Below, piece after piece: positions 18,575-62,677 of a DNA stretch of 64,000 nucleotides. The notes below the pieces were generated by a model. That model searched no databases and was not told where the DNA came from. It was given only the letters and a program-made list of their open reading frames with translations. Position numbers and translations under genes: made by a program. Positions within the stretch are counted from its first letter, which is position 1. Every line of letters starts with the position of its first letter. The stretch lies in contig JANXME010000326.1 of NCBI GenBank assembly GCA_025354785.1, positions 1,506-65,505 on the forward strand, written 5' to 3'. Source of the DNA: Actinomycetes bacterium. Lineage in GTDB: Bacteria; Actinomycetota; Actinomycetes; Nanopelagicales; Nanopelagicaceae.

Positions 18575-19285
18575 TTAATATACTGGGAATGGGAATGGCG
18601 GGTCCATTTCGACTGCACTACGTATATCATCTACTAATCGCTGATATGTTTTGGGAGGCACATTATATCTCTTTTTAGAATATTTTACCAATCTATATAT
18701 TGATTCCATTGGAAATTGGTGTCGATGTATTATCAGATTATTTTTGAATAGATCAATAATAGACATTGGGTTCATGGTCAAAACACCATTATTCACCGCA
18801 AATTGTGTTACAGTGAAATCGAATGAATCGATTACATGTTCAACACTCTCGTACCACACCAATTTCACCAATTGAATAGGTAGCCGCGATTTGCCTGGGT
18901 GCTCAAAATTAACCAATCGTATGGCTGCAGATCGCGCCTTAATATCTTCGCGGGATATGTCGGGTTTATATCCCTTTAATGCCCAAGCATCATCTGCATC
19001 AGGTGGGTTGCAAAGCAATTCGTAAGTATCAATAAACGCTGCGCCTGACGTAAAGAATATATCGATATCTGTTGGTTTACGATTACGATCAATCAAAGAT
19101 GTGATAAAGCTGCCAGCCAGAACAGCGCCATCTGGCAAATATTTTGTCAAACTATCTAACTCTTTATTAAAGATATTTCGTGGTCCAGCCAGGTCTTTCA
19201 GTGCAACACTGTGATACATAGTGCTGGTTAAAGAATAATGCGCGGGACAGTTGTGTTTTAAATAATACGGATCAATAATGGTCAT
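18575..19285 (-). CDS. Pol-beta-superfamily nucleotidyltransferase-like protein
   Basis: hG[GS]x9-13DxD pattern LAGSFITSLIDRNRKPTDIDIFF, downstream acidic DSFDF; adjacent to RNA ligase. Confidence 0.45.
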   Translation of the reverse strand: MTIIDPYYLKHNCPAHYSLTSTMYHSVALKDLAGPRNIFNKELDSLTKYLPDGAVLAGSFITSLIDRNRKPTDIDIFFTSGAAFIDTYELLCNPPDADDAWALKGYKPDISREDIKARSAAIRLVNFEHPGKSRLPIQLVKLVWYESVEHVIDSFDFTVTQFAVNNGVLTMNPMSIIDLFKNNLIIHRHQFPMESIYRLVKYSKKRYNVPPKTYQRLVDDIRSAVEMDPPFPFPVY

Positions 19286-19295
19286 GGACCCTAGA

Positions 19296-20399
19296 TTACG
19301 CAGTATAATCGATATCTTGTAGTTCCAACATTGACATTAGACTCTTGATATTCATGTCTGCCAGATAAGCTTTAATGCTGGCGGCTCTCTTCGATCGGAC
19401 AGAAAACAAAGCTCCAGAGCATCGCGTCTTGACCGCCTCTAAGGCAAATGTCTTTTGGTCCGGAAAATCTTCGATCTGTAAATATGCAGTCTCAAGTTCA
19501 TGAATTAATTTCTTGAGCGCAGTGCCTACTTTTTCAAATTGAGGTGCCCACTCCGGAAAATAGGTTAGAAACTCTGGAACTTCTCCGGAACGCATAATCT
19601 CAACAATTCGACGCATCCCGAAACCATCTTTTAAATGATGGATGGCCACATATCCAGGGTGCTTCATTTTGTTGCGATTAAAATCACTATCCAGAACTAC
19701 ATATCCCTCTTGGGACATTGGGTCGATTGTGTCAAAAGACGATTCGATGGCGGCCACGCTGTTTAGCGCGAAAGCCCGGACCGCTGGGTATCCTGTTGCG
19801 ACGGCGCGCGGGCCATATACTGATAGCTCCTGTCCAGAAAATCTATCGCGGACGCCAATTAATTTTAATTGACAGTCCATGTGTCGCACCACAATTCGAT
19901 TGTAGGGAGTCATTAATTCAAACATATAATTAATGTCCACGTCTGAATGTGGGGGAACAGACAATTTTTGCTTCTGGAATGTATCCCAAAACAAACTTGC
20001 AAAAGTCATGTTTGGCAAGTCGTTTACATTACCGCCAGCATCTGGCGATCCGGAGGTTGCAACATTCCAAATCCCATTGTACCAATATAAAGTACACAAT
20101 GAGCCATCAAGCTTTTCTTGGACCATTGCGGTGTTCCAGTTGATCACTGAGGCATGCCCTTCGCCAAAATTGAAAAATTTATCGAATGGGCGACAGATAA
20201 CACGCCAATTATCGGATTCATCTAAGATGAGTCCACGACATTCACGAACCAATGGTTCGGCCATTGGAGAATCTATCTGATTATATTTGAACAGAAGCAG
20301 ATTGTCGAATTTAGGATGATGGCGTGCCACAATAGCATATTTCTCAGTCAGCTGGGCGGGCGTAGCCCCAGACATAAGCGCTTCTTGTATTTTGAGCAT
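19296..20399 (-). CDS. ATP-dependent RNA ligase, Rnl1-like
   Basis: Motif I EKLDGSL; FELMTPYNRIVV as in T4 Rnl1-type ligases; size 367 aa. Confidence 0.65.
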   Translation of the reverse strand: MLKIQEALMSGATPAQLTEKYAIVARHHPKFDNLLLFKYNQIDSPMAEPLVRECRGLILDESDNWRVICRPFDKFFNFGEGHASVINWNTAMVQEKLDGSLCTLYWYNGIWNVATSGSPDAGGNVNDLPNMTFASLFWDTFQKQKLSVPPHSDVDINYMFELMTPYNRIVVRHMDCQLKLIGVRDRFSGQELSVYGPRAVATGYPAVRAFALNSVAAIESSFDTIDPMSQEGYVVLDSDFNRNKMKHPGYVAIHHLKDGFGMRRIVEIMRSGEVPEFLTYFPEWAPQFEKVGTALKKLIHELETAYLQIEDFPDQKTFALEAVKTRCSGALFSVRSKRAASIKAYLADMNIKSLMSMLELQDIDYTA

Positions 20400-20404
20400 A
20401 TTTA

Positions 20405-20851
20405 CTATTCGCGATAATCGTTAAGTAGGTCTGCATCACTCATGAATCTAATTACATCTCTAACCAATTCATCATTCTGAGACACACTGCCGTCTACTCT
20501 TACTTTGTGCAAAAATCGTGCCAAAAGATCTTGCATTCTTACAAAATCATTGCGCGATGGAATTGCATTATCAACTCTTACAATGGTCGATATTTCATCG
20601 CGCAATTGGTGAACATTTATTGTGTCATTTATTGTATCCCAAACTAATATGCTTATCCTACGTGCAGATTCAAGCAGATTGATTTGGTCCGCTTCCATCT
20701 TTTTAAACTTGCCATAGATCGTCTCTGCTTCCATGAGAACAGACAGGACGTCGTCAGTCAGAAGACCGTCTTTTCGTAAACGTTCCTTAACATCGTCTAA
20801 ATTATTTAGCTTTAAGCTTGTGACAAGAAGCCCAGGCATTGAAGAGTCCAA
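20405..20851 (-). CDS. hypothetical protein
   Basis: 148-aa ORF; about 40-50 nt overlap with upstream ORF, start uncertain. Confidence 0.5.
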   Translation of the reverse strand: MDSSMPGLLVTSLKLNNLDDVKERLRKDGLLTDDVLSVLMEAETIYGKFKKMEADQINLLESARRISILVWDTINDTINVHQLRDEISTIVRVDNAIPSRNDFVRMQDLLARFLHKVRVDGSVSQNDELVRDVIRFMSDADLLNDYRE

Positions 20852-21029
20852 CGATTTGCTCCAGACCTTGTAGGTCGGAATGAGACAGACAATCTAGATG
20901 AGATCCGTTATCGTCTATAATATAGAAGCTTGAATCACTTCGTAAAATTAATGTAAAATGTCCAATCACTCCAATCACCAATCCTTCATTCTTGATTTTA
21001 TCAGCATCTAACGTTCTTTCTATTTCCAT
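20802..21029 (-). CDS. hypothetical protein
   Basis: 75-aa co-directional ORF. Confidence 0.4.
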   Translation of the reverse strand: MEIERTLDADKIKNEGLVIGVIGHFTLILRSDSSFYIIDDNGSHLDCLSHSDLQGLEQIVGLFNAWASCHKLKAK

Positions 21030-27256: not shown

Positions 27257-27514
27257 ATGGATCCTATACTCAAAAAATGTTGGCGATGTCCAGCTGACAA
27301 AGGTGGGCAACCGCCTGAAAACTTCTGTCGTGATGGTAAAGACTCGGTGTGTAAGTCATGTCGATATGAACTGAATGCTGAATGGGCTAAGAATAACCGT
27401 GAGAAGCTGCGTCCAAAGCGCGCCGAATACATGCGCCACTATCGCGCGCAAAAAGCAAAAGAACAAGCTGCAAAAGACGTGCCAGCGGCCCCCACTGAAG
27501 ATCCAGAAAAATAG
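27257..27514 (+). CDS. N-terminal Zn-ribbon module of HNH family B without the nuclease core (truncated remnant)
   Basis: CWRC..FC..SVCKSCRYELNAEW parallels CTGC..F..SKCKKCYSN of 57596..58051; no DH..N..CH core. Stop TAG touches the 3' end of the opposite-strand tRNA. ATG 27257 with AAGG SD. Confidence 0.5.
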   Translation: MDPILKKCWRCPADKGGQPPENFCRDGKDSVCKSCRYELNAEWAKNNREKLRPKRAEYMRHYRAQKAKEQAAKDVPAAPTEDPEK

Positions 27515-27595
27515 CTCCGTGAGGGAGTCGAACCCACGCGTTCTTACGAAGCCTGCTTACAAAGCAGGTGCACTCGGCCACTATGCGAACGGAGC
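27514..27595 (-). tRNA. type II (long variable arm) tRNA with apparent UGU (Thr) anticodon
   Basis: GCTCCGT TC GCA TAGTGGCCGAG TGC A CCTGC TTTGTAA GCAGG CTTCGTAAGAACGC GTGGG TTCGACT CCCTC ACGGAGC. 7-bp acceptor, 3-bp D stem, 14-nt variable arm, one U-U in the T stem. Confidence 0.6.
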
Positions 27596-30915: not shown

Positions 30916-30955
30916 CAGATGCGATCCTGACTACAACTTATATAAAAAATATTAT

Positions 30956-31028
30956 TGAGAATGACAGGAGTTGAACCCGCGTCTACTAAGTCGATACTTT
31001 AGTCGCTCTACCGTTGAGCTACATTCCC
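30956..31028 (-). tRNA. tRNA-like gene with 9-nt anticodon loop (isotype undetermined)
   Basis: GGGAATG TA GCTC AACGGTA GAGC G ACTAA AGTATCGAC TTAGT AGAC GCGGG TTCAACT CCTGT CATTCTC A. Acceptor, D and T arms fold normally; the loop does not fit a 7-nt U33 pattern. Confidence 0.5.
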
Positions 31029-31063
31029 ATTTATTGCCTAATTAAGACCTTTTGACGTGTCAC

Positions 31064-34673: not shown

Positions 34674-35231
34674 ATGTCCACCACATATAATAGTAGAAGA
34701 TCCCTGAATAAATGTGTTAAATGTTCTAAACAATTAAATGACATTACTCAAGCTAGATGCCAGACATGCCGTAATTTTGAGCAAGAAAATACAAAATCTT
34801 ATCAGTCAAAGCGTATTCTTGCACATTTATGCCGGAGTTGTTGCAAGTCCAACAATAATGGGAAAGTTCATTGTGATATTTGCGGTTTTAAAGCAAGAGT
34901 CCGTGCCCGTAAGCGCGCCATAGAATTAAAAATTATGATATTAAATGCATATGGTGGACCACAGTGCGCTTGTAGAGGGTGCAGTTGGCATAATCAACGC
35001 TGTGTCTGTAGTCACATAGACGTCTTAACTATAGACCATATCGACAATAGTGGCGCCAAACATAGGAGAGAGATGACTGGCGGAGATCGCGTCGGTGGCG
35101 GCGATACCACCTATCGATGGCTTAAGAAGAATAATTACCCATCTGGATATCAAGTTCTATGCTGGAATTGTAATTGGATCAAATATAAACATTTAGTCTC
35201 TCCACAAAATCTGGATTCTCATTTTCATTAG
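34674..35231 (+). CDS. HNH endonuclease, family A (free-standing, opposite strand)
   Basis: N-terminal Zn ribbons, LNAYGG, TIDHIDNSGAKHRRE, LCWNCNW. 53-nt convergent overlap with the phosphoesterase gene. Confidence 0.8.
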   Translation: MSTTYNSRRSLNKCVKCSKQLNDITQARCQTCRNFEQENTKSYQSKRILAHLCRSCCKSNNNGKVHCDICGFKARVRARKRAIELKIMILNAYGGPQCACRGCSWHNQRCVCSHIDVLTIDHIDNSGAKHRREMTGGDRVGGGDTTYRWLKKNNYPSGYQVLCWNCNWIKYKHLVSPQNLDSHFH

Positions 35232-35916
35232 GATATCCCATTGGATTGGCAAAAACGCGCGTGCTGCCAATCTTAATATCGATTGGACAGTGTGTATGCC
35301 CATGTATCCACAATTTTGGCTTGCGAGCAACCATCAAATCTTCCACGTCACACACGAAAAATCGATTTAATGAAGACTTTTGAAATTTTGGATGAATACT
35401 CTTTGAAGATGGAAGATGGTGTGTGACCACCACATCATTTTCACATAAATTATCTTGTAGACCTTGAACAGTTAATTTATTTTCTTCGTAGACCCATGGA
35501 TCAAATCCATCGATTACATGAAAGTCGTTCATCTGCTGTGCGTGCAGACGATTGTTCTTCTCTTGACGAAACCAGAGAGTGCCTCCAAGAAAACGCTGAC
35601 CATCAATTACCTTTACGCCACCGTGACGTAATACATGGAGATTGGTGAGATTATACTCAATTGCATTGAGGTGTCTCTCAGCAGTTCCAACATCGGTATT
35701 GTAATACTCATGATTACCGCAAACCATGAGTACTTTGTTATATTTAGAACAAAATTCAGACAGAATGTCTTGGGACCAATAGTAGTCGCGCAAAACAGTG
35801 ACGTCGCCGGCTAAAACTAATATGTCTACCCCGCTTGGGTCAAGACTTTTTAAGAAAGAAATTCCATGGTCCCTGTGAAATTCTAGGTGGAGATCACTCA
35901 TAATGGCCAGTTTCAT
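35179..35916 (-). CDS. calcineurin-like metallophosphoesterase
   Basis: MSDLHLEF, LAGDV, GNHEYY, THHLP, GHTHCP in canonical order. Confidence 0.85.
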   Translation of the reverse strand: MKLAIMSDLHLEFHRDHGISFLKSLDPSGVDILVLAGDVTVLRDYYWSQDILSEFCSKYNKVLMVCGNHEYYNTDVGTAERHLNAIEYNLTNLHVLRHGGVKVIDGQRFLGGTLWFRQEKNNRLHAQQMNDFHVIDGFDPWVYEENKLTVQGLQDNLCENDVVVTHHLPSSKSIHPKFQKSSLNRFFVCDVEDLMVARKPKLWIHGHTHCPIDIKIGSTRVFANPMGYPNENENPDFVERLNVYI

Positions 35917-36875: not shown

Positions 36876-36893
36876 TATATCCTCGGATTAATG

Positions 36894-44497: not shown

Positions 44498-44893
44498 TTA
44501 ATATAGTTTAAGGTGTCCTGTCACCTGGTTTATCTTCTCTTCTGTGTCCGGGCCAATGGCTAGGCATGTGCGGGTTGGTACGCCGTTGAACTCAGTCTTA
44601 CCTGCGTCGGTAATCATATGCACCTCAAGACCACTAGTTTCGGCCTGCTCATAAATCTCCATTAATTCTGCCTCTGAGCTGACTTGAAGACATATTTTGG
44701 TAAATGCGCCGCCAAACATCCACTCTATTTCATTTTTACTAAAGTTGCCTTCATATTGGCCCGTTCCTAGACTATCCCAGGCTGTGGTTAGCCGTTTCAC
44801 TAAGAATGAAATAGATGCATGAGCACCTTGAGCAACACACTTACCTTTTCTCATTTTTAGATCGGCGCGCATCACTAGCACTTGTTTGATCAT
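44498..44893 (-). CDS. pth2: peptidyl-tRNA hydrolase, PTH2 (archaeal/eukaryotic) type
   Basis: KQVLVMRADLKMRKGKCVAQGAHAS, ITDAGKTEF, TCLAIGPDTEEKINQVTGHLKLY. ATG 44893 (or GTG 44899 in a GTGA overlap). Confidence 0.85.
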   Translation of the reverse strand: MIKQVLVMRADLKMRKGKCVAQGAHASISFLVKRLTTAWDSLGTGQYEGNFSKNEIEWMFGGAFTKICLQVSSEAELMEIYEQAETSGLEVHMITDAGKTEFNGVPTRTCLAIGPDTEEKINQVTGHLKLY

Positions 44894-44895
44894 GC

Positions 44896-47502
44896 TCACC
44901 TTAATAGTTGTAATAGTGCAGCCAGTTCGACCGGCGCCATCTTAGCAACACCAGCACATGTGTTGTTTACCTGATTGCAATTTGCTCCTACGTTAGGGTG
45001 AATACCATCACGAAGGTCTGCCAACGTTAATACCGAGTTAACATCTGCTAAACGCACTTTCTGCCCCGCAGTGACCCTTGCAGCTACCAGCCGGCGCAAC
45101 TCGGTATTATACTGTTGTGCAAGTACGGCCCGATCTACATTGTTCGGTGCTACCAACACTGACGACTGAGGTGGGATTGTTTGCACCACAATTTTTACGT
45201 TCGGTAGTGTTTGTTGAATGGTGGTGATTAGAACATCCTGTCGACCTGCAACACTCGTGCCAGTCTCGGCTGTCCACCATGCAATATCATTAGTTCCGGC
45301 CATGACGACCACAACATCTGGTTGATAGGTATTCAGCCACCCTACAACTTGCGCACTAATATCTCCAATTGTCCAACCTGGATGTCCCTCGTGGCGTGTG
45401 GAACATGGATCGTATGTATTTGCCTGAGACCCTACAGGTACGATATTATATCCAGCTGCGATTGCCTGTGTGGTAAGTGCGCAGCGCCATGACCATTCTT
45501 CTTGTGTTATCGAGTCACCAAGGTCCATGAGCTTAATGGCTGCGCCCGTGACCGGTGCACCCGCATCGACAACCCCGGCGTCTGGAACCACGGTGCCAGC
45601 GTCCTTTGCCACAACTCCTGCATCTGTCACTGGTGGCGGGGGTGTGCCCGCATCCGGTGTTTGAGTGCCCGCGCCCCACGAAATTGAGTCAACATATATA
45701 ATACCAGACAGGGCTGCGTTTGGCTGCAGTTCCACACCAAGGCTTTGCAACACACCTGGAACAGTGGGCAGAGTGAGTGTGAACGTATTCCATCCGACAA
45801 TCAGTGCTGACTGTGGGAACCAGTTAGAGTTCCATTTCCATGAAGTGGTTGCGTCTTCCTGAGCAAACACCTGTAATGAAGTGAGGGCCGTGACCACAGG
45901 GATATAGACATGGTATGTAATCGTCGTGCCGCGCGGGACTGCTGGGTTGGCTACGATGAAGCTCTGATTGGCAGATGAGGAGCCATTGAATGTTCCAGCC
46001 AGTGACCGTAAGCCAGCAAATGCCTTGGCCGTACTGGTACCAAGCGTGCCACCCCCGCCAGTTAGAGTAAACCCCTGCAGATTGCCCGCAGTCTCGAAGT
46101 TGCATTGTGCAGGATCCAAAACAACTCCACCTGCGTCTGGTGTGCCAGCATCCTTAGTGCCTGCGTCAGGTGACCCAGCATCAACAACTATCGTGCCTGC
46201 ATCCTTTATACCCGCATCCACAACCGTTCCAGCGTCAGGTGTTATACACACACAAGTACACACGGCACCTGCATCTGGCGACCCGGCATCAACAATGCCT
46301 GCGTCAGGCACAGGGGCGCTAGATGGTAGATTCATGCCTCCACTAGCATAAAATGTACCAACATTGACTTTCAGGAAATCGTTGTCAACTTCTTGACGGC
46401 TCTGGCATCCCTCGCCCGCTCCGAACAACAGTGAAATCATGCCACTGCTTACAAATTTTTGTAGATGCGTGGTGCCACCGTTGCCGAAGAAATATTCTGA
46501 ACGATTGTCTTTGTATCCACTACCTATGCTACCATTGTAGCATACATCCTTACTAAAGGAGTTGCCAATCGGCACCTGCCAAAGCACCCAACGCTTGGAT
46601 GCCTTTACGTTCCAGAGGCGCATCCATTCAGCATAACGATTGAAGCTTCTGGTGTTTATGGCAGCTGTATCAGCTGTGTCCCACCAACGATTCTCTCCTC
46701 TTACAAGCGTGTAGTAGTTAGAATCTCTGTCAAGAGGGTCGCCCACTAATATATCATATGTATCACCAGTTATATTAGCGACTAGCCCCAGTGGCGCTAA
46801 GAAGTTGTATACATTGTCAACAGCTGGCTGTAGCGGATCGGTCACATTGAAATGTATGATGTCTAACCCAGTTGCCCAGCCAGAAATGTGCATACCCAAT
46901 ATTACGTTTGTTGCACCAACAGACTTGCGCATCTGCAAAAATGCTAACCCCCATCCTGCAGCCGTATTGGGTAGCCCGGCTAGCTCTGGTAGACCAGTGG
47001 ATGCGATTGCGGCTGGAGCAGTTGGTACTACGGCTGACTCTTGTAGATATGCATATCCATCTGGTTCAAGCATAACTAGGACCGGTCTGCCAAATGTCTT
47101 TGCTTGCTGCATTAGCAGCTTGAAATCGCCAAAATATTCGGCCATTGCTGTGGGCGATTGTACCTTTTGGTAGAATCCGGTATTAGCGGGCGGGATGTCA
47201 TACATTTCATAGTACGAGATAGCTGGAATGTATCCGTTGGCGTCTGCGGACTTGAAGAAGGACTGAGCGAAGGCGCCGTCACGTGGGCCACCGCCCCAAT
47301 TGGTGGCCCAGGAGTATGTCAGATAGATATATTCCAGATCCCACTGGACACCGCTATTGTGCATCCAGGTTGTGGACGCTGAGTCGTTGTTGTTGAATAG
47401 CCCGATAGATAACTTTTGCGGCATTGGTGCCGGCACAGACCCAGATGGGCCTGCCCATGCATTAACAGTAAGAAGGAGGCAGATTAAGCAGCTTAATTTC
47501 AT
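44896..47502 (-). CDS. secreted modular protein: N-terminal domain, DAG-rich linkers, beta-sandwich (CBM-like) domain, C-terminal SGNH/GDSL hydrolase
   Basis: Signal peptide MKLSCLICLLLTVNAWA; linkers PDAGIVDAGSPDAG..DAGTKDAGTPDAGG; SGNH blocks LGDSITQ, MAGTNDI, DGIHPN. Confidence 0.75.
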   Translation of the reverse strand: MKLSCLICLLLTVNAWAGPSGSVPAPMPQKLSIGLFNNNDSASTTWMHNSGVQWDLEYIYLTYSWATNWGGGPRDGAFAQSFFKSADANGYIPAISYYEMYDIPPANTGFYQKVQSPTAMAEYFGDFKLLMQQAKTFGRPVLVMLEPDGYAYLQESAVVPTAPAAIASTGLPELAGLPNTAAGWGLAFLQMRKSVGATNVILGMHISGWATGLDIIHFNVTDPLQPAVDNVYNFLAPLGLVANITGDTYDILVGDPLDRDSNYYTLVRGENRWWDTADTAAINTRSFNRYAEWMRLWNVKASKRWVLWQVPIGNSFSKDVCYNGSIGSGYKDNRSEYFFGNGGTTHLQKFVSSGMISLLFGAGEGCQSRQEVDNDFLKVNVGTFYASGGMNLPSSAPVPDAGIVDAGSPDAGAVCTCVCITPDAGTVVDAGIKDAGTIVVDAGSPDAGTKDAGTPDAGGVVLDPAQCNFETAGNLQGFTLTGGGGTLGTSTAKAFAGLRSLAGTFNGSSSANQSFIVANPAVPRGTTITYHVYIPVVTALTSLQVFAQEDATTSWKWNSNWFPQSALIVGWNTFTLTLPTVPGVLQSLGVELQPNAALSGIIYVDSISWGAGTQTPDAGTPPPPVTDAGVVAKDAGTVVPDAGVVDAGAPVTGAAIKLMDLGDSITQEEWSWRCALTTQAIAAGYNIVPVGSQANTYDPCSTRHEGHPGWTIGDISAQVVGWLNTYQPDVVVVMAGTNDIAWWTAETGTSVAGRQDVLITTIQQTLPNVKIVVQTIPPQSSVLVAPNNVDRAVLAQQYNTELRRLVAARVTAGQKVRLADVNSVLTLADLRDGIHPNVGANCNQVNNTCAGVAKMAPVELAALLQLLR

Positions 47503-48167: not shown

Positions 48168-48525
48168 TTAGATCTGTCAACAACTGCTTTGCAATCTGTT
48201 TAGGAGCCAAACCCGCATAGTTGTCCGACTTGTTTAGGAAATCTATTACCATCTCGATTTTTGACAGAGTATAGTATATGCTATTGGATGCGATAGGACG
48301 CCACTGCCAATATTTTTTCAATATTCCGTCTATCATGTGTCCCATATAAACATAATAAAGAACTGAATCTATTAGTATGGTGAAATGGTCTGCATGGAAG
48401 CCGGAAGCATTAGCCATCCAGAAATGTCTCTTTTCATAAGACAACAAACTAAAAGCCTTAGATTCTGAACGGTTGATTTGTGTATGATAGTCAGTAGCCA
48501 CGATGGCTTTTACCAACCTTTTCAA
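48148..48525 (-). CDS. hypothetical protein (paralogue of 47874..48167)
   Basis: See neighbour; tandem duplication. Confidence 0.5.
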   Translation of the reverse strand: MKRLVKAIVATDYHTQINRSESKAFSLLSYEKRHFWMANASGFHADHFTILIDSVLYYVYMGHMIDGILKKYWQWRPIASNSIYYTLSKIEMVIDFLNKSDNYAGLAPKQIAKQLLTDLNDVQTR

Positions 48526-49034
48526 CCATTGCCATCAGCTGGCGGATATTCTTCGGCCTATATTCGTTTACATCCACACCAACATTAATGATCGGACCCT
48601 TACGATTAAACGCCTCGTGAACGTGACCATGTAGATGAACATCTGCCTTCTCGTTTGGCAGAAATGCCATATCTGGCTCATGGCGTAGGTAAAGTTTTAC
48701 TCCATCGACAGTCAAAAAAAGCTCAGTGTTGATTGAGGCCCATTCAGCATTCTCAATTTGAGATAGGATGGTCACACCGTTATGCTTCATGTCATGATTG
48801 CCCAAAACAATATGCTTAACGCCATTCAGGCGCGCCCAGATGCCTGGAATGAGCCCCTTGTCACCCATGGCAAAATCGCCCAAATGATAAATAGTGTCTT
48901 GTGGACTAACAACCTCATTCCAATTCTTAACTAACTCTTCGGTCATGTGGGCGCAGTCTTTAAACGGCCTACTCGAATATTGTATAATATTGTTATGGTT
49001 GAAAGTGCGTATCCGAAGTAAAGTATGTACTCAA
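48491..49034 (-). pseudogene. small metallophosphoesterase interrupted by a 1-nt frameshift near its 5' end
   Basis: Track ORF (to 48946) has HLGDF, GNHD, GHVH but lacks the first DxH motif. Upstream, one frame encodes (TTG)STYFTSDTHFQP-stop and the main frame continues FNHNNIIQYSSRPFKDCAHMTEEL. The shift lies in CTTTC at 49001-49005. Confidence 0.65.
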
Positions 49035-50076: not shown

Positions 50077-50330
50077 TCTTCAGAACATATAGGGGTGGGC
50101 CAGTAATCATTCGCGCCAGAATCATGTCTAAATGCGGTGGTAACGTCGCATATATTACATCCAGCATACATGCCTGAGAAATATATGGTTGGCTCCACTA
50201 GCATGCTTTCTGATTTATACGGATCGCGATACTCCGCTTTCGGCTGGTTAAATACCCCTGGGTGCTTTGTGTTGAAATCCATCAGTGTCCGCCACAATTG
50301 GTTCTGCGCCATCGAAAAAAACCTCCACAC
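49947..50330 (-). CDS. hypothetical protein
   Basis: 127-aa ORF overlapping the Thg1-like 3' end; start uncertain (50312 or 50282). Confidence 0.35.
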   Translation of the reverse strand: MWRFFSMAQNQLWRTLMDFNTKHPGVFNQPKAEYRDPYKSESMLVEPTIYFSGMYAGCNICDVTTAFRHDSGANDYWPTPICSEECLGALLANQAESTPTLPEISCLESSVPDGTTTTTMVADILNV

Positions 50331-51117
50331 GATTCACAACACGTGCCAGCGGCGGCATATTAATTTGAGCCACAACATGGCGTTCAATCTCTAGATTGGG
50401 ATTTACGCGTGCTGCGTGTTTTGGCGGTAGTGCCTCCAATTCTTCTTGGGTAAATTTTCCAGTCATCTTAATACGGCGCACATATGCACCACGTTTGAAA
50501 AACGTCGGATAGTCAGACCAGTTCACACCCTTTTTATGGAGCATCTCGATCATCTCTGTCCGACCCTGGTTCGCCATTTCTAAATGGGAGTAATAGTGGC
50601 GTGTGGCCATAGATACACTATTTTTGGTGGCATCTTGCTCACGCCACAAAATGGCATTAACAGCTTCATCCTTGTTAGGCACATTCCAAACACGACAATC
50701 GAATGTCGGAAGAGATTCTGCCTTTTCTGGAATGTACATAGCCAAATTTTTGTTGAAAAAGGCGCTTGCTTGTGAAGCGAGATTGCTTACGATCTTTTGA
50801 ATTTTACCATCAAACCATACCTGTTCACGGAAATCATGCGCATATATCAGTAGACTGATCTCGTCGGATTGAGTGTAGCCCACCAACGCATTAGTTTCCT
50901 CTACTAGATGGATGGTGGTGTCGGCCATCAAACTTGACATACGGCGATCGTATGGACGTTTTAGTCCGCGAGTAAATTTACTAAAACTACGTCCATCTAG
51001 ACGGGCAATGAGCGGCAATAGAGGCATAAGTTTGCGACCAGCCTCAACCTGCTCGTAAGACTTCATCCTTATTGCCACATCTGTATTGTCTTTGCTCATA
51101 AATTTAATTATTTCCAT
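50248..51117 (-). CDS. Thg1-like protein (tRNA-His guanylyltransferase family, 3'-5' nucleotidyltransferase)
   Basis: LIARLDGRSFSKFTRGLKRPYDRRM and VGYTQSDEISLLI match the Thg1/TLP palm-domain carboxylate motifs. Confidence 0.8.
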   Translation of the reverse strand: MEIIKFMSKDNTDVAIRMKSYEQVEAGRKLMPLLPLIARLDGRSFSKFTRGLKRPYDRRMSSLMADTTIHLVEETNALVGYTQSDEISLLIYAHDFREQVWFDGKIQKIVSNLASQASAFFNKNLAMYIPEKAESLPTFDCRVWNVPNKDEAVNAILWREQDATKNSVSMATRHYYSHLEMANQGRTEMIEMLHKKGVNWSDYPTFFKRGAYVRRIKMTGKFTQEELEALPPKHAARVNPNLEIERHVVAQINMPPLARVVNRVEVFFDGAEPIVADTDGFQHKAPRGI

Positions 51118-53471: not shown

Positions 53472-53896
53472 AATTCTCCAGATTGGGGACAATCCACTAC
53501 ATGTCCGCACAAAGCGGCTCGATCTTCCCATCTCCAATTTCTCGTAAGATGGTCACATTCACAAACTAACTTAGTTGGCTTAGTTGCGCCATCGGCATAC
53601 ACTATATGACATTCATCGCTTAATACGTAGTACATAACTGCCTTCTGGCGATAGTGGTCGATCGTTATTTGCACGATTTGTGCCATGATATCGTCGGCAC
53701 ACATAATTCTAACTGGAATTACCCTTTCTAAGAAAGTTTCTCCTTCATGTTCCCAAACACCCTTTCCAGGAGTAAAGATGGTAAGTCCACCCGTAAGCTT
53801 TTGCACTTTAGCGTCCCAGTTCTTATGATGTTTCGTGCGAATGGGCTTGATTGTGTCGCCATACATCGTTGGCACTAATATCTCATAAAGCTTCAT
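53468..53896 (-). CDS. hypothetical protein
   Basis: MKLYEILVPT start in an ATGA overlap; C-terminal Cys/His cluster. Confidence 0.5.
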   Translation of the reverse strand: MKLYEILVPTMYGDTIKPIRTKHHKNWDAKVQKLTGGLTIFTPGKGVWEHEGETFLERVIPVRIMCADDIMAQIVQITIDHYRQKAVMYYVLSDECHIVYADGATKPTKLVCECDHLTRNWRWEDRAALCGHVVDCPQSGEL

Positions 53897-54402
53897 TTGT
53901 GAGCACTCTCGGTGGCGCCACATATAACGCAGCCATTTACATATATCGGATGGGACCTAAATTGATGGTTCGGCGCTGGAGCGGGACGTGTCGAAGCTTT
54001 ATTTGTCATACCTTTTAGATTTCCAATCGTTATGTGGAACACTGGGCGACTGTCAGGGGGCCTAGATTGGACACTTGTTCGTGGGAGCCCCAACCCTAGT
54101 CGAAGTAGTTCCAACTCCGCACTCATTGCATTTACCCAATAATATTTGCCATCGTCATGGACAAACGGATTATATTCAAAATTAATAGGCAGGCCATCAT
54201 TTAGGCCCCATAGTGTTAAGTCTATTGGAACCTCATGGCGAATAACTGAAATATGTGGCGCATATTTCTGATGATTAAGTCCCACTGGCGTCAAGGCTCT
54301 AGCAACCGCAACTATTCCTGGATCTACTTCGACTATAAGCTTATGCCCGGTTGAGTCGTGGGTGTAACGTAATATACCAGTTGAGTCATGCCAACCATTC
54401 AT
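53893..54402 (-). CDS. 2H phosphoesterase superfamily protein (LigT/CPDase-like or Acb1-like)
   Basis: Two Hx(S/T)x motifs, PHISVI and FHITIG, about 80 aa apart. Confidence 0.6.
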   Translation of the reverse strand: MNGWHDSTGILRYTHDSTGHKLIVEVDPGIVAVARALTPVGLNHQKYAPHISVIRHEVPIDLTLWGLNDGLPINFEYNPFVHDDGKYYWVNAMSAELELLRLGLGLPRTSVQSRPPDSRPVFHITIGNLKGMTNKASTRPAPAPNHQFRSHPIYVNGCVICGATESAHK

Positions 54403-57595: not shown

Positions 57596-58051
57596 ATGAC
57601 TATTTTTAATAAATGTACAGGCTGCCATCGCAAATTACCAGAACATGACTTCAGTTTTAAAAACAAGTCTACTGGCTATAGACAATCCAAGTGCAAGAAG
57701 TGTTATAGTAACATTTTGAAAGTCCATTATATGCTGAATAAAGAGGGTTATATTCATAAATATAAGTATCGAGCTAAACAAATCAAATCCAACATTGCTT
57801 CGATCAAATCGAGTAAACCATGTCTAGACTGCGGTGTCGCGTATCCATATTATGTTATGGATTTTGATCATCGACCGGGTGAACTTAAGACTGCTGACAT
57901 AAGTGTAATGATTAGAGCAAAAATGGCATATAATTCGATTTTGACTGAAATATCTAAATGTGACTTAGTATGTGCAAATTGCCATAGGGTACGCACATTT
58001 ATACGTTCTAAACGCCCCCTGAGGGCCTCGAACCCCCGACCTTCAGAGTAG
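57596..58051 (+). CDS. HNH endonuclease, family B; 3' end antisense to tRNA-Arg
   Basis: CTGC..KCKKC, PCLDCGVAYPYYVMDFDH, CDLVCANCHRVRT. The last 38 nt overlap the opposite-strand tRNA. ATG 57596 preferred over track TTG 57578. Confidence 0.8.
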   Translation: MTIFNKCTGCHRKLPEHDFSFKNKSTGYRQSKCKKCYSNILKVHYMLNKEGYIHKYKYRAKQIKSNIASIKSSKPCLDCGVAYPYYVMDFDHRPGELKTADISVMIRAKMAYNSILTEISKCDLVCANCHRVRTFIRSKRPLRASNPRPSE

Positions 58052-58086
58052 AAATCTGACGCTCTATCCATCTGAGCTAAGGGGGC
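58014..58086 (-). tRNA. tRNA-Arg (UCU)
   Basis: GCCCCCT TA GCTC AGATGGATA GAGC G TCAGA TTTCTAC TCTGA AGGTC GGGGG TTCGAGG CCCTC AGGGGGC. Confidence 0.85.
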
Positions 58087-60062: not shown

Positions 60063-60316
60063 TTAAGCCTCTTAAGCACGATTCGCCGCATTGTAACAAA
60101 CAACACTGCAATCGCAATGCCACCGGGTAGTAATATAAGACCGACCAATACTATCGTTTCGGTCTTATTCGGCTTCGGTCCGAATATTACGGTTGAGGCT
60201 CGCTTTGAAAAGCTTAACAGTGCGATGCCCAATTGCGCTGTGTACATCCTTGCCTTCAACAAGTTCGCCTTTACCTTCTCTGAGCACATCTTCCACCATT
60301 GCACTAATAATGTCAC
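60059..60316 (-). CDS. possible small membrane protein (start unclear)
   Basis: C-terminal TM IVLVGLILLPGGIAIAVLFV; the N-terminal part overlaps the Rnl2 3' end in another frame. Confidence 0.3.
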   Translation of the reverse strand: MTLLVQWWKMCSEKVKANLLKARMYTAQLGIALLSFSKRASTVIFGPKPNKTETIVLVGLILLPGGIAIAVLFVTMRRIVLKRLK

Positions 60317-61121
60317 GCATAGAATTGATAGTACGCTTCTCTTCGGGCATCTTATCTAACACGTGCTGCAAACGAACATCGGTCACCCATTCGTCGGCGA
60401 TTGCTTTAGCATTGTCGAGTACAGCTAGTTTCGCCGGATCGACAACTTTGCGCACACTCGTTGTCTCGCGCCACTCGGGGCGCTTGTGTTTTGCAATCAC
60501 CCGGTCCCCGTTGTTCGCGCGCAACTCTATTAGCGGTCTGGCGACGACGCCTTCGGCGATCTTGTCCGCGCCACACCCATTCCGGATTGCCTGTGTGGAG
60601 AAAGCGTCTCGTTGCGCATCCAATGCCTCAACGGTAGCAGGAATACGAACATAGTGCACAAAGTCAAATCCTAGATCTAGAGCAACCTTCTCGGCCTTAG
60701 GTACACTGAGCCACAAGTTGCCAATTTTTACGTCGAAGGCAACAAACTTGAGCTCTTTCCCGTAGGTATTAGACATACCTTGACATTTGCCACCATATGC
60801 TTCGCCAAAGACAATGACCTTATCCATGCCCAATCTAGTGAAGGCTTCAGACAACTTATCCTTGTCAAATAAGCTAACAAATTTTTCGTATTTCTCCCCA
60901 CCAGAGAAAAATCCGACGCCCACTTGAGGCTTCCCATCACACCCCTCGCATGGTAGCCCTAGATTTTGCGCACTGCCTCCACCACCGCCACATTCGGCAC
61001 AGGGAGTGAGTCGGAAAGATACATGGGCGCTCGTGCCATGAATCTTTTCCATGGCATAACACTCCTTGAAAAGGAGTATTTCTTGGTTCTTGTACAGGTT
61101 CTCTATATGTAAGTATCCCAT
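60165..61121 (-). CDS. ATP-dependent RNA ligase, Rnl2-like
   Basis: Motif I EKIHGTS, FGEAYGGKCQG, EGVVARP, KHKRPEW. ATG 61121 lies directly after the upstream stop. Confidence 0.8.
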   Translation of the reverse strand: MGYLHIENLYKNQEILLFKECYAMEKIHGTSAHVSFRLTPCAECGGGGGSAQNLGLPCEGCDGKPQVGVGFFSGGEKYEKFVSLFDKDKLSEAFTRLGMDKVIVFGEAYGGKCQGMSNTYGKELKFVAFDVKIGNLWLSVPKAEKVALDLGFDFVHYVRIPATVEALDAQRDAFSTQAIRNGCGADKIAEGVVARPLIELRANNGDRVIAKHKRPEWRETTSVRKVVDPAKLAVLDNAKAIADEWVTDVRLQHVLDKMPEEKRTINSMRDIISAMVEDVLREGKGELVEGKDVHSAIGHRTVKLFKASLNRNIRTEAE

Positions 61122-61123
61122 TA

Positions 61124-61600
61124 TCAACTCACGTTTGTAACTGCGTATAGGGGGTATGTTCCCCGAACAAACACACTGCTTAAAACTTCTGGAGCACGAG
61201 ATACTGCGAAACATCGTTTAAGATCAATGTCATCATAATTCAAGCTCCATCCGGCATCTTCTAGCTCATCTCTTAGGCTGCCCATGCTATCATAAGTCGC
61301 TTGTAGTATAGCTGCGATGCCGTCTATTATGTCGTTTTCGACATGAACATGAAGCTCGTCAAGCTTGACACCACATTCTGGGCAAAATTTACACTGCGTC
61401 TTAATCGCACCATCAGCCTTACAGTCTCCTAGATGCCCGTCGTCTTCGTCAATATCTTGACCAAATACCCTAGCGAGGCTCTGCAGTGCATCTAGCACAG
61501 AGTCAAATCCTTTAATGTGGCTAATAACCATGCAGGACATGCTCTGGTCCTCTGCATACCCTTGATAGAGCCATAGTGTTTTGACCGGCTTTTTCTTCAT
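61124..61600 (-). CDS. hypothetical protein
   Basis: MKKKPVKTLW start with AGGAG SD; CKFCPEC ribbon. Confidence 0.5.
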   Translation of the reverse strand: MKKKPVKTLWLYQGYAEDQSMSCMVISHIKGFDSVLDALQSLARVFGQDIDEDDGHLGDCKADGAIKTQCKFCPECGVKLDELHVHVENDIIDGIAAILQATYDSMGSLRDELEDAGWSLNYDDIDLKRCFAVSRAPEVLSSVFVRGTYPLYAVTNVS

Positions 61601-61872
61601 AGTTGCTCCTAAAATTTTGCACCCCATATTAGCCAATACTAATATGATTAGATGTGTGGGTCCGTAACTGGACTAGGACCCCATCTCCACGAATGATCGT
61701 CGCAGGCCGATATATCCACACCAGATTCAACCCTGGCGTTTGTACTATACCACCAACCGGACCTTAACTAGTCTAACCGGCTGAAGTGATGTACTGCGCA
61801 AATCCGAATAGTGGTTCGACGCAGCGTTGTGTCTCTTCCCCATAGGTGCATTCTGGGATCGGGGACGGTTTC
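61601..61872 (-). ncRNA. candidate structured non-coding RNA region 2 (class unknown; strand inferred)
   Basis: 272-nt gap in a tightly packed genome; G+C-rich. Hairpins CCAG-GGTTGAAT-CTGG, GGGTCC..GGACCC, CTGCG..CGCAG. Only a poor 72-aa ORF overlaps it. Confidence 0.4.
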
Positions 61873-62424
61873 TTACAACAACTGCTTCGCGAGTTCGTAT
61901 AAAACAATATTTCCCGCTTGTGAAGTATTCAAACAAAATCCAACTCCCGGCATTGGAATGCAAACAATCATGTCTGACACATGAAGGATTTCCTCTGGGA
62001 CGCCGGTAGTTTCGTGACCAAGCACCAACATAATCTCCTTGCCCCTCTCTACCCTTAGCTCCGACAATGGGATTGCTCGCTCATCTAACTCTAACGAAAT
62101 AAGTGGAATGTTTTTTGCTAGCGTATATTCGAGAAAAGAGCTTGGGTTGGAATGTTGCCTGATATTAATCAGGCGGTTAAGACCACCAGATAGACTAACC
62201 ATATCTCGATAGCTGGGTGCGGCGCCAATGATGTGCAGATCCATTGCTCCGAAACAAGCCATCGCACGGATGATAAACCCAATATTGCCATCACACCGAA
62301 AATTTATAGTAGCAACGGATATGGGGATGGTCTTGGCGCCAAGAGCCTTAGCCATATGTCGCTCAGCGCGAGTTTTTCTCTGGAGAAGAGGCGAGAATAC
62401 ATTCCCACTCTGTAAGACCTGCAT
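61873..62424 (-). CDS. SpoU/TrmH-family RNA 2'-O-methyltransferase
   Basis: NIGFIIRAMACFGA, MLVLGHETTGVPEEIL, CIPMPGVGFCLNTSQAGNIVLYE. GGAGG SD before ATG 62424 (alternatives 62439, 62355). Confidence 0.85.
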   Translation of the reverse strand: MQVLQSGNVFSPLLQRKTRAERHMAKALGAKTIPISVATINFRCDGNIGFIIRAMACFGAMDLHIIGAAPSYRDMVSLSGGLNRLINIRQHSNPSSFLEYTLAKNIPLISLELDERAIPLSELRVERGKEIMLVLGHETTGVPEEILHVSDMIVCIPMPGVGFCLNTSQAGNIVLYELAKQLL

Positions 62425-62677
62425 ATGAATTACCTCCATCAGCTAATTTACGGTACAATTGCTGCACCTCAATGACCCATGGCTCAACAAAAGCCATGTA
62501 ATAAGGTGGCCAATCAGGTTCTTTCGGCACCCACACCCTAATACCAGCCTCTCTGAGTGTTAGCACCTTGTCCATGCGCAAATAACCTAGCGTAACCATC
62601 CCCGGTGGACCTTGATGCAATTTTGCCTCCGATCTTGCGAAATCAGGATGCAGTGGATCGTGCAAAAATCGTGCCAT
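62363..62677 (-). CDS. member of the paralogue family (helix module, no zinc finger)
   Basis: FVEPWVIEVQQLYRKLADGGNSYAGLTEWE. MARFLHD start at 62677; the track start reads into tRNA-Lys. Confidence 0.45.
   Translation of the reverse strand: MARFLHDPLHPDFARSEAKLHQGPPGMVTLGYLRMDKVLTLREAGIRVWVPKEPDWPPYYMAFVEPWVIEVQQLYRKLADGGNSYAGLTEWECILASSPEKNSR

What the first reader, a model, noticed from the sequence alone, without database searches (positions are those of the whole stretch)
18575..62439. Distributed tRNA/RNA maintenance arsenal
One 44-kb span holds many RNA-maintenance genes. The enzymes are Rnl1-like and Rnl2-like ligases, a Pol-beta NTase, a Thg1-like enzyme, a 2H phosphoesterase, two metallophosphoesterases, PTH2 (two copies) and a SpoU methyltransferase. 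The RNA genes are at least 7 canonical tRNAs (including an initiator type) and at least 6 aberrant tRNA-like genes. The density suggests a coordinated strategy against host tRNA-targeting defences such as anticodon nucleases and tRNA-cleaving toxins. That strategy would combine replacement, repair and possibly decoy RNAs.
Basis: inference. Interest (0 to 1): 0.6.

Follow-up and report, generated by a model that had tools for sequence, protein, structure and literature searches.

The report
Large-phage tRNA and RNA-repair gene set
This stretch of a large uncultured bacteriophage really does pack two RNA ligases, end-trimming and end-rebuilding enzymes, two peptidyl-tRNA hydrolase-type genes, an RNA methyltransferase and about ten tRNA genes, but such tRNA-repair kits are already described for big phages, so it is a rich new example and not a new kind of system.

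Summary
They are Rnl1-like and Rnl2-like ligases, a Pol-beta nucleotidyltransferase, a Thg1-like protein, a 2H phosphoesterase, two metallophosphoesterases, one canonical and one divergent PTH2, and a SpoU methyltransferase. There are also 8-10 tRNAs, one of initiator type, and about six aberrant tRNA-shaped genes.

Three corrections apply:
- One metallophosphoesterase is frameshifted.
- The nucleotidyltransferase carries the Pfam label Gad2 (anti-Gabija) and is not RlaP.
- No polynucleotide kinase or RtcB was detected.

The genes form four small modules that keep their order in three or four related uncultured phages. They are not one operon.

The anti-anticodon-nuclease reading is the standard published inference for jumbo phages (Iyer et al. 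2021, Viruses 13:63). It remains untested here. The MAG that holds the contig showed no PrrC/RloC, OLD-Toprim or PIN nuclease. Codon-usage support for the tRNAs is mixed.

This scan reached the same verdict earlier for similar kits on other DNA.

The less precedented details are a conserved Rnl1/Gad2-family NTase gene pair, a SpoU methyltransferase that is almost absent from catalogued phages, and tRNA-shaped genes with closed anticodon arms.

Verdict: new member of a known kind, moderate interest.

The parts
19296..20399 (-). Rnl1-like ATP-dependent RNA ligase
   Evidence: PF09511 3.8e-13. TIGR02308 5.2e-18, below the equivalog cut-off. Motif I KLDG at residue 96. T4 Rnl1 structures 2c5u/5tt6 at 1e-10. 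47-85% identical in relatives L123, L125, L126 and L127.
18575..19285 (-). Pol-beta-type nucleotidyltransferase, 10 nt downstream of Rnl1. Pfam label PF26128 'Gad2'. No match to RlaP PF10127.
   Evidence: phrog_1614 7.5e-9 and phrog_4400 5.6e-14. GS-x10-DID motif. PF26128 is precomputed on this protein and on all 23 homologues. The Rnl1-NTase pair is conserved in four relatives.
27513..27595 (-). 83-nt tRNA-Thr(UGU) with a long variable arm (aberrant body)
   Evidence: ARAGORN and Rfam 50.7 bits. Relative L126 has a normal 73-nt tRNA-Thr(UGU) at the same place.
30955..31029 (-). tRNA with an unusual AUC (Asp) anticodon and an A.C mismatch in the anticodon stem
   Evidence: ARAGORN and Rfam 53.5 bits.
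35179..35916 (-). Calcineurin-like metallophosphoesterase 1 (intact)
   Evidence: PF00149 2e-13. DLH, GNHE and GHTH motifs. 64% identical in L129. No characterised close relative: best PDB hit 6unc at 0.004.
36893..37215 (-). tRNA-Pro(UGG) and tRNA-Ala(UGC)
   Evidence: ARAGORN; Rfam 66.1 and 62.8 bits. Same pair present in L129.
40244..40606 (-). tRNA-Gly(UCC) and initiator-type tRNA-Met(CAU)
   Evidence: Rfam 59.5 and 64.2 bits. The Met tRNA has U1.U72, A73 and three G:C pairs next to the anticodon loop.
40607..40970 (-). Three tRNA-shaped genes without a normal anticodon loop (40607-40688, 40828-40896, 40901-40970), plus a T-arm-bearing fragment between them
   Evidence: Each has a perfect 7-bp acceptor stem and a D arm. 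The anticodon arm is closed or elaborated. One has an encoded CCA. Rfam scores 40828-40896 at 29.9 bits. A counterpart of 40607-40688 lies upstream of tRNA-Met in L129, with a compensatory change in the acceptor stem.
43502..43780 (-). Divergent PTH2-fold paralogue (IREPD in place of the D-A-G-x-T motif)
   Evidence: PF01981 0.003-0.005, below the cut-off. 707 family representatives, of which 87 of 88 sampled hit PF01981. The family profile hits PTH2 structures at 6.8e-8. 49-54% identical in L128 and L129.
44498..44899 (-). Canonical PTH2 peptidyl-tRNA hydrolase. It overlaps by 4 nt the upstream 868-aa GDSL-domain gene.
   Evidence: PF01981 2.6e-33. TIGR00283 104.7 bits, above its cut-off of 82. 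63-69% identical in L128 and L129.
48491..49030 (-). Metallophosphoesterase 2, disrupted by a 1-nt frameshift directly after motif I. An HNH endonuclease gene (49031-49783) abuts it.
   Evidence: PF12850 1.6e-7. Frame analysis. DNA alignment with the intact 180-aa and 209-aa genes of L128 and L129. The intact homologue matches Aquifex aq_1665 (1xm7) at 6.3e-13.
50248..51117 (-). Thg1-like protein (TLP type), a 3'-5' nucleotidyltransferase
   Evidence: PF04446 7.9e-32. PDB 4kgk 1.2e-34. 73-85% identical in relatives and about 60% identical to bacterial TLPs.
53893..54402 (-). 2H phosphoesterase of the 'Swiss Army Knife' (2H-SAK) type
   Evidence: PF22547 0.0027 for the protein itself. 20 of 22 homologues hit PF22547, best 6.8e-8. 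HISV50 and HITI123 are invariant. No homologue in L128 or L129.
58013..58086 (-). tRNA-Arg(UCU)
   Evidence: Rfam 64.1 bits. Conserved position in L128 and L130.
60165..61214 (-). Rnl2-like RNA ligase with a Cys-rich insert. The true start is probably Met32.
   Evidence: PF09414 2.6e-11 and TIGR02307 1.8e-10. EKIHG motif I. 72 IMG/VR homologues at 42-54% identity. 77% identical in L128 and L130.
61873..62439 (-). SpoU/TrmH-family RNA 2'-O-methyltransferase
   Evidence: PF00588 1.7e-24. Best matches are TrmH Gm18 enzymes: NF008295 2.9e-15 and PDB 7edc 4.8e-12. 82% identical in L130, again next to tRNA-Lys and 2 kb from Rnl2.
62679..62988 (-). tRNA-Lys(UUU), a Val(UAC)-like aberrant tRNA (62775-62848) and a low-scoring tRNA-Tyr(GUA) (62908-62988). 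All lie just beyond the stated end of the finding.
   Evidence: Rfam 70.2 bits (Lys) and 37.2 bits (Tyr). The Val-like gene is found by ARAGORN only at relaxed settings.

Best explanation
The span is part of the auxiliary-gene region of a large uncultured tailed phage. The contig is 65.6 kb. The matching pieces in one relative add up to at least 124 kb. The contig was binned into a 1.95-Mb bacterial MAG.

It carries a real and dense RNA/tRNA maintenance set of the kind already catalogued for jumbo phages. The set is arranged as four small modules that keep their order in related phages:
1. Rnl1 followed directly by a Pol-beta nucleotidyltransferase.
2. DNA ligase, Thg1-like protein and metallophosphoesterase 2, and further on GDSL protein, PTH2 and PTH2-like gene.
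3. Metallophosphoesterase 1 beside tRNA-Pro and tRNA-Ala.
4. SpoU methyltransferase and Rnl2 beside tRNA-Lys, tRNA-Tyr and tRNA-Arg.
A less conserved 2H-SAK phosphoesterase is also present.

What is shown: the gene identities, the catalytic motifs and the conserved neighbourhoods.

What is inferred from the T4 paradigm and from family biochemistry:
- During infection the phage keeps translation running by supplying its own tRNAs (Lys-UUU, Tyr-GUA, Thr-UGU, Arg-UCU, initiator Met and others).
- Rnl1 reseals nicks in tRNA loops and Rnl2 reseals nicks in duplex regions. This works directly on the 5'-phosphate/3'-OH ends that metal-dependent (Toprim or PIN type) nucleases leave.
- The 2H enzyme opens 2',3'-cyclic phosphates.
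- The nucleotidyltransferase adds back lost 3' nucleotides.
- The Thg1-like enzyme rebuilds truncated 5' ends.
- PTH2 releases peptidyl-tRNA from stalled ribosomes.
- SpoU 2'-O-methylates tRNA.
For: - Family assignments and motifs.
- Second PTH2 and the 2H gene resolved at family level.
- Synteny with relatives L123 and L125-L130, at 41-94% protein identity across the modules.
- Thg1 lies within 10 kb of Rnl2 homologues in 10 of 72 IMG/VR loci. A PTH2-like gene lies next to Thg1 in a 394-kb phage.
- Uncultured huge phages LR745208 and LR756511 share Thg1, PTH2 and Rnl1 or Rnl2.
- Iyer et al. 2021 describe the same repertoire and the same reading for jumbo phages.
- Toprim nucleases leave ends that Rnl1 and Rnl2 seal without a kinase (PMC12445682).
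Against: - No polynucleotide kinase, HAD phosphatase, RtcB or CCA enzyme was found in the window. Repair of PrrC-type or colicin-type breaks is therefore incomplete as far as can be seen.
- The metallophosphoesterases are from uncharacterised clades, and one is frameshifted.
- The NTase does not match RlaP and bears the anti-Gabija Gad2 label.
- The 2H gene is absent from the closest relatives.
- The genes are scattered among unrelated genes.
- The MAG that holds the contig has no AAA_13 (PrrC/RloC), OLD-Toprim or PIN match. The host link itself is uncertain.
Confidence: 0.6

Rival explanations
1. Translation self-sufficiency, with no counter-defence role. The tRNAs adjust the tRNA pool to phage codon usage after host shut-off. 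SpoU, the Thg1-like protein and PTH2 serve the maturation, quality control and recycling of the phage's own tRNAs. The ligases are general RNA housekeeping.
For: - The codons read by several phage tRNAs are used more in the phage than in the MAG: ACA 1.77x, TAT 1.7x, AGA 1.5x, AAA 1.28x.
- The phage tRNA-Lys anticodon loop is identical to the MAG's, so there is no sign of nuclease-evading loop changes.
- SpoU is closest to TrmH (Gm18), a general tRNA-body modification enzyme.
- No tRNA nuclease was found in the MAG.
Against: - GGA (0.61x) and GAU (about 1x) do not fit codon compensation.
- There is no tRNA-His in the window for a classical Thg1 role, and the enzyme is of the TLP repair type.
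- Two RNA ligases plus an end-adding NTase and a 2H enzyme have no known role in bacterial tRNA maturation.
- The host assignment of the MAG is unproven.
Confidence: 0.22
2. A mixed bag of independent auxiliary and anti-defence genes with different targets. The Gad2-family NTase blocks Gabija. The 2H and metallophosphoesterase enzymes destroy cyclic-nucleotide immune signals, as the anti-CBASS 2H enzyme Acb1 and T5 A1-type phosphodiesterases do. Rnl2 and the DNA ligase seal nicks in nucleic-acid duplexes. Only the tRNAs and PTH2 concern translation.
For: - The PF26128 'Gad2' label on the NTase and on all of its homologues.
- Gad2 is an experimentally shown anti-Gabija NTase.
- Iyer et al. assign 2H and calcineurin-like enzymes to counter-nucleotide defence as well.
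- The genes are dispersed and do not form an operon.
- The 2H gene is variable between close relatives, as anti-defence cargo tends to be.
Against: - The NTase sits 10 nt behind Rnl1, and the pair is kept in four relatives. That argues for a shared RNA-end function.
- The 2H family hits the RNA-repair 'Swiss Army Knife' model. The family profile finds no solved 2H structure, Acb1 included.
- The NTase has no detectable tblastn similarity to Bacillus SPbeta-group phages, where Gad2 was tested.
Confidence: 0.15

Closest known systems
Jumbo-phage RNA repair repertoire (Iyer, Anantharaman, Krishnan, Burroughs and Aravind 2021, Viruses 13:63, section 3.4.9), with examples such as Burkholderia phages BcepSaruman and BcepSauron
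   Same: It combines phage tRNAs, Rnl1 and Rnl2 ligases, 2H and calcineurin-like phosphoesterases, a ligase-linked Pol-beta NTase, sporadic Thg1 and PTH2. It is read as a counter to anticodon nucleases. BcepSaruman and BcepSauron also carry Thg1.
   Different: Here no PNK/HAD or RtcB is visible. The ligase-linked NTase is not RlaP (PF10127) and carries the Gad2 family label. A SpoU methyltransferase and a second, divergent PTH2 are added. Genome size is unknown because only a 65.6-kb contig is held.
Bacteriophage T4 tRNA repair (Pnkp + Rnl1 against PrrC; Rnl2; eight tRNAs; stable RNAs C and D)
   Same: Rnl1-type and Rnl2-type ligases with the same catalytic lysine motifs (KxDG, EKIHG). A tRNA cluster that includes odd tRNA-like RNAs.
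   Different: No Pnkp homologue was found. The ligases are only 25-30% identical to T4-type enzymes. No PrrC was found in the MAG.
Huge phages from metagenomes (records LR745208, 485 kb, and LR756511, 595 kb, in the phage collection)
   Same: These are the best database matches for Thg1 (52% and 45%), PTH2 (50% and 52%), Rnl2 (51.5%, LR745208) and Rnl1 (31.5%, LR756511). They are large phages with many translation-related genes.
   Different: These records are unannotated and only distantly related. No synteny was examined.
Gad2, the anti-Gabija nucleotidyltransferase of Bacillus phage SPbetaL7 (Yirmiya et al., bioRxiv 10.1101/2023.05.01.538930)
   Same: The NTase here and all of its homologues carry the Pfam family label built on Gad2. 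Both are phage Pol-beta-type NTases.
   Different: 236 aa against 400 aa. There is no direct tblastn similarity to SPbeta-group phages. Here the gene is coupled to an RNA ligase. Gad2's mechanism is unknown.
Bacterial Pnkp-Hen1 RNA repair (seal and 2'-O-methylate the junction)
   Same: A ligase and an RNA 2'-O-methyltransferase are kept near each other (SpoU lies 0.7-2 kb from Rnl2).
   Different: SpoU has a different fold from Hen1. It is closest to TrmH (Gm18) enzymes, which do not modify RNA ends. The resemblance is an idea only.

Membership tests
Rnl1 (T4 RnlA) RNA ligase family | Match to the PF09511 nucleotidyltransferase domain, with the catalytic lysine in KxDG | tested here: met
   50.2 bits against a cut-off of 28.3. 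KLDG at residue 96. T4 Rnl1 structures at 1.7e-10. The stricter NCBIfam equivalog TIGR02308 is not reached (65 bits against 242).
Rnl2 RNA ligase family | PF09414 domain with EKxHG motif I, plus an Rnl2-type C-terminal domain | tested here: met
   44.4 bits against a cut-off of 27. EKIHG at residue 57. TIGR02307 aligns residues 130-318 at 1.8e-10 but below its equivalog cut-off. No solved structure was matched by sequence.
Thg1 / Thg1-like proteins (TLP) | PF04446 domain and closest similarity to bacterial TLPs | tested here: met
   110.4 bits against a cut-off of 29.2. B. thuringiensis TLP 4kgk at 1.2e-34, ahead of eukaryotic Thg1 at 2e-8. The metal-binding carboxylates (RLDG, SDE) were seen by eye in the sequence.
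PTH2 peptidyl-tRNA hydrolase | PF01981 above its cut-off | tested here: met
   Copy 1 (44498-44899) scores 115.1 bits against a cut-off of 23. Copy 2 (43502-43780) scores only 17.7-18.2 bits. It belongs to a family whose members hit PF01981 (87 of 88) and whose profile hits PTH2 structures at 6.8e-8. The D-A-G-x-T motif is replaced by IREPD.
2H phosphoesterase superfamily (2H-SAK) | Two H-x-S/T-x motifs about 70-80 residues apart, and a match to a 2H model | tested here: met
   HISV50 and HITI123 are invariant in 22 homologues. The protein itself scores 18.4 bits against a cut-off of 27, but 20 of 22 homologues hit PF22547. The fold was not confirmed: the AlphaFold single-sequence model had pLDDT 29.
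[quoted passage not shown] | Match to PF10127 | tested here: not met
   No Pfam family at E <= 0.01 for 18575-19285. Only the gene-neighbourhood feature (next to an RNA ligase) is met.
Gad2 (PF26128) anti-Gabija NTase | Match to PF26128, and anti-Gabija activity | not testable with these tools
   The label is precomputed on this protein and on 23 homologues. The model is not in the local Pfam copy. There is no tblastn hit to SPbeta-group phages. The activity was not tested.
SpoU/TrmH 2'-O-methyltransferases | PF00588 above its cut-off; which subfamily (TrmH, TrmL, TrmJ or RlmB) | tested here: inconclusive
   Superfamily membership is met (87 bits against a cut-off of 29.7). The subfamily is not resolved. 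TrmH is the best match, but every equivalog model scores far below its cut-off.
T4-type Pnkp/Rnl1 anticodon-nuclease counter-defence | A 5' kinase / 3' phosphatase partner of the ligase, and a PrrC-type nuclease in the host | tested here: not met
   No kinase-type Walker A protein and no AAA_33 match on the contig. No AAA_13 match in the MAG. The contig and the MAG are incomplete and the host link is unproven, so absence is not shown.
Bacterial initiator tRNA | 1:72 mismatch, three consecutive G:C pairs at the bottom of the anticodon stem, CAU anticodon | tested here: met
   U1.U72, A73, stem GCGGG/CCCGC, loop CUCAUAA.

The most novel reading that the evidence does not exclude
The directly adjacent Rnl1/Gad2-family NTase pair, kept in four related phages, is a new two-enzyme RNA-end repair module that works like RlaP plus a ligase. 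If so, Gad2-type anti-Gabija proteins may act by adding nucleotides to damaged RNA or tRNA. That in turn would suggest that OLD-family nucleases such as GajA have an RNA side to their action. Alongside this, SpoU with Rnl2 would seal and 2'-O-methylate tRNAs so that they cannot be cut again. The tRNA-shaped genes with closed anticodon arms would serve as decoys or substrates of this system.
Probability: 0.12. Interest if true: 0.75.

Novelty: new member of a known kind. Interest (0 to 1): 0.36.

Why it matters
As a whole this adds one more example, a very dense one, to the RNA-repair kits already catalogued in large phages. It does not change the picture.

Three details could be worth a bench test:
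- A second NTase family, labelled Gad2 and of unknown mechanism, is genetically coupled to an RNA ligase.
- A TrmH-like methyltransferase, almost unseen in catalogued phages, is kept beside Rnl2 and tRNA genes.
- A widespread divergent PTH2-fold family (707 representatives) has an altered motif.

Each is a defined protein that can be expressed and assayed on damaged tRNA.

Tried and rejected
- Megablast of the span against 50,697 phage records found no relative.
- A second PTH2 was not found by tblastn, phmmer, BLASTP or shallow hhalign. It was resolved only by a family-level profile search.
- AlphaFold on single sequences of the 2H and PTH2-like proteins gave unusable models (pLDDT 29 and 50), so no fold search was run.
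- A profile of the NTase family found no solved structure.
- An HMM of the NTase family found nothing beside nine IMG/VR Rnl1 homologues. The weak cultured-phage homologues are not next to a ligase. The Rnl1-NTase pair is therefore specific to this lineage.
- The first Thg1-based IMG/VR loci (G001-G003) share only isolated genes with the window.
- The anticodon-loop comparison with the MAG's tRNAs was uninformative.
- The idea that other tRNA-dense contigs of the bin (C283, C269) continue this phage was set aside, because they duplicate its tRNA types.

Full report
**Setting.** The window is G000:C128:1506-65505. C128 (65,566 bp, 44.6% G+C) is the largest contig of a 1.95-Mb, 356-contig genome bin whose other contigs average 48.7% G+C. 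The bin is a genuine small-genome bacterium, 92.9% complete with 0.94% contamination. None of twelve same-genus genomes carries Thg1. All genes on the contig run on the minus strand. The first 18 kb holds ribonucleotide reductase, RecA, a primase, a helicase and an adenylosuccinate-synthetase-like gene. No part of the contig looks bacterial. It is a phage contig that was binned with the bacterium, so the bacterium is only a candidate host. Megablast against 50,697 phage records found no relative.

**Checking the enzymes.** Pfam, PHROG and NCBIfam scans of about 115 ORFs confirmed the following directly:
- Rnl1-like ligase, 19296-20399: PF09511 3.8e-13, KLDG96, T4 Rnl1 structures 1.7e-10.
- Rnl2-like ligase, 60165-61214: PF09414 2.6e-11, EKIHG motif.
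- Thg1-like protein, 50248-51117: PF04446 7.9e-32. The best solved relative is the Bacillus thuringiensis TLP 4kgk at 1.2e-34.
- PTH2, 44498-44899: 2.6e-33.
- SpoU, 61873-62439: 1.7e-24, closest to TrmH Gm18 enzymes.
- Two calcineurin-like phosphoesterases, 35179-35916 and 48491-48946.

Three items needed more work.

- *The NTase (18575-19285).* It has no hit in the local Pfam copy. It matches PHROG nucleotidyltransferase families and has the GS...DID motif. A protein search found 23 homologues, and all of them, like the query, carry the precomputed label PF26128 'Gad2'. That model is not in the local library, so I could not score it myself.
- *The second PTH2.* Pairwise methods did not see it. 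A six-frame Pfam search gave a sub-threshold hit at 43502-43780 (17.7 bits). A profile built from this ORF and its two orthologues retrieved 707 representative proteins. Of 88 sampled, 87 hit PF01981, and the family profile hits solved PTH2 structures at 6.8e-8. It is therefore a divergent PTH2-fold paralogue in which IREPD replaces the D-A-G-x-T motif.
- *The 2H candidate (53893-54402).* On its own it is sub-threshold (0.0027). However, 20 of 22 homologues hit the RNA-repair 'Swiss Army Knife' 2H model, and both H-x-S/T motifs are invariant.

One correction concerns metallophosphoesterase 2. Its motif I (YFTSDTHF) lies in another frame. Alignment with the intact genes of two relatives shows one extra base right after the His codon, and an HNH endonuclease gene abuts it.

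**tRNAs.** ARAGORN finds eight tRNAs and Rfam ten. tRNA-Met has U1.U72, A73 and three G:C pairs in the anticodon stem, so it is of initiator type. Two of the eight are odd: an 83-nt Thr(UGU) with a long variable arm, and Asp with an AUC anticodon. Upstream of tRNA-Met lie three tRNA-shaped genes with perfect acceptor stems and D arms but closed or elaborated anticodon arms. One of them has an encoded CCA. A Val-like gene and a weak Tyr gene lie next to tRNA-Lys, just past the stated end of the finding. Relatives carry similar elaborated tRNA-like genes. One sits at the same place upstream of tRNA-Met and has a compensatory change in its acceptor stem.

**Relatives and architecture.** Homologues of the NTase and of Thg1 led to contigs of three or four related uncultured phages:
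- GCA_040384425.1, two contigs of 72 and 52 kb;
- GCA_034680565.1, 58 kb;
- two Logan contigs of 102 and 61 kb.

tblastn shows 41-94% protein identity with conserved gene order. The maintenance genes fall into four modules that keep their order in these relatives:
1. Rnl1 directly followed by the NTase, in all four relatives.
2. DNA ligase, Thg1 and metallophosphoesterase 2, and further on GDSL protein, PTH2 and PTH2-like gene.
3. Metallophosphoesterase 1 next to tRNA-Pro and tRNA-Ala.
4. tRNA-Lys, SpoU and Rnl2, with tRNA-Arg further on.

The 2H gene, the HNH gene and a 681-aa ORF are absent from the relatives. Among 72 more distant Rnl2 homologues in IMG/VR, Thg1 lies within 10 kb in ten. 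In a 394-kb phage a PTH2-like gene sits beside Thg1. The Rnl1-NTase pairing is not general. No NTase of this family lies near nine other Rnl1 homologues or next to a ligase in cultured phages.

**Rarity.** In 50,697 phage records the number of records with a match is:

| Gene | Records matched |
|---|---|
| Rnl1 | 733 |
| Thg1 | 162 (almost all phages of 150-630 kb) |
| Rnl2 type | 42 |
| PTH2 | 34 |
| SpoU | 7 (mostly bacterial or fragment records) |
| NTase | 4 |

. The combination is far denser than independent occurrence would give. These genes are nevertheless known to accumulate together in large phages.

**What is known.** Iyer et al. 2021 (PMC7824862, section 3.4.9) describe this repertoire for jumbo phages. 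It comprises tRNAs, Rnl1/Rnl2/RtcB, kinase and HAD, 2H and calcineurin-like phosphoesterases, the ligase-associated RlaP NTase, the CCA enzyme, sporadic Thg1 and PTH2. They read it as a counter to anticodon nucleases. RlaP (PF10127) was recently shown to add one or two nucleotides to damaged RNA 3' ends. Phage tRNAs are known to neutralise PARIS, Septu/retron PtuAB and P2-OLD. This scan has also reported comparable kits on other DNA, with the same verdict. The finding is therefore a new member of a known kind.

**Mechanism and its limits.** The most likely working is replacement plus repair plus ribosome rescue, as set out under the best explanation.

A notable gap is that no kinase, HAD phosphatase or RtcB is present in the window. 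With the genes seen, only breaks with 5'-phosphate and 3'-OH ends can be sealed directly. Toprim nucleases such as P2-OLD leave exactly such ends. The contig is only part of the genome, so the gap may not be real.

Other limits:
- The metallophosphoesterases have no tie to RNA repair beyond superfamily membership.
- The candidate host bin shows no PrrC/RloC, OLD-Toprim or PIN nuclease.
- Codon usage supports compensation for some tRNAs (ACA, AGA, UAU) but not for others (GGA, GAU).

**Less precedented details.** Three stand out:
- The ligase-coupled NTase bears the Gad2 (anti-Gabija) family label and does not match RlaP.
- A TrmH-like SpoU methyltransferase is conserved beside Rnl2 and tRNA-Lys, although such genes are almost absent from catalogued phages.
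- tRNA-shaped genes lack a usable anticodon loop.

These support a speculative reading of a new NTase-ligase repair pair and a seal-and-methylate pair. I rate that reading at about 0.12.

Noticed in passing
window 48900-49783: Metallophosphoesterase 2 carries one extra base right after its first metal-binding motif, compared with the intact genes of two relatives. It starts with TTG. A free-standing HNH endonuclease gene (49031-49783, phrog_374 1.3e-25), absent from the relatives, ends exactly where it begins. This could be a real disruption linked to the endonuclease insertion, or an assembly error.
   Followed up: partly
G000 contigs C283 (5.1 kb), C269 (2.3 kb), C107 (2.3 kb): Other short, low-G+C contigs of the same bin are packed with tRNA genes: 12, 8 and 2. 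C107 also has a metallophosphoesterase-2-like gene. They duplicate tRNA types of C128, so they probably come from another large phage in the sample.
   Followed up: partly
window 41040-43085, 53468-54402: A 681-aa ORF with no family match has no counterpart in the two closest relatives. Neither does the pair formed by the 2H-SAK gene and a 151-aa ORF with a weak S-adenosylmethionine-lyase hit (0.00055). These look like variable cargo islands inside an otherwise syntenic region.
   Followed up: partly
window 43502-43849: The PTH2-like gene's conserved N-terminal segment (YHYIVGRGDVPRG...) lies in frame upstream of the first ATG/GTG/TTG. The true start may therefore be a rare start codon, or this copy may be N-terminally shortened.
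   Followed up: no
window 60165-61214: The Rnl2-like ligase has a Cys-rich insert (CAECGGGGGSAQNLGLPCEGCDG) shortly after motif I. Homologues align only from residue 31-32 onwards, so the annotated first 31 residues are probably not translated.
   Followed up: no
window 16800-18630: A 542-aa protein and an 81-aa ORF directly downstream of the NTase are conserved with the Rnl1-NTase pair in all four relatives (43-73% identity). The conserved unit may therefore be a four-gene block. A weak WLM (zinc protease) Pfam hit was seen among the scanned ORFs, but I did not establish which ORF gave it.
   Followed up: no
window 10532-11662: An adenylosuccinate-synthetase-like gene (PF00709 7e-19) is conserved at 71-74% identity in all relatives, next to ribonucleotide reductase. 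It was not examined here.
   Followed up: no
L129:12164-12436 and L128:6859-6948 (relatives): Related phages carry 90-100-nt tRNA-like genes with extra hairpins in the anticodon or variable region. One is called by ARAGORN as a UUA ('stop') anticodon tRNA.
   Followed up: no
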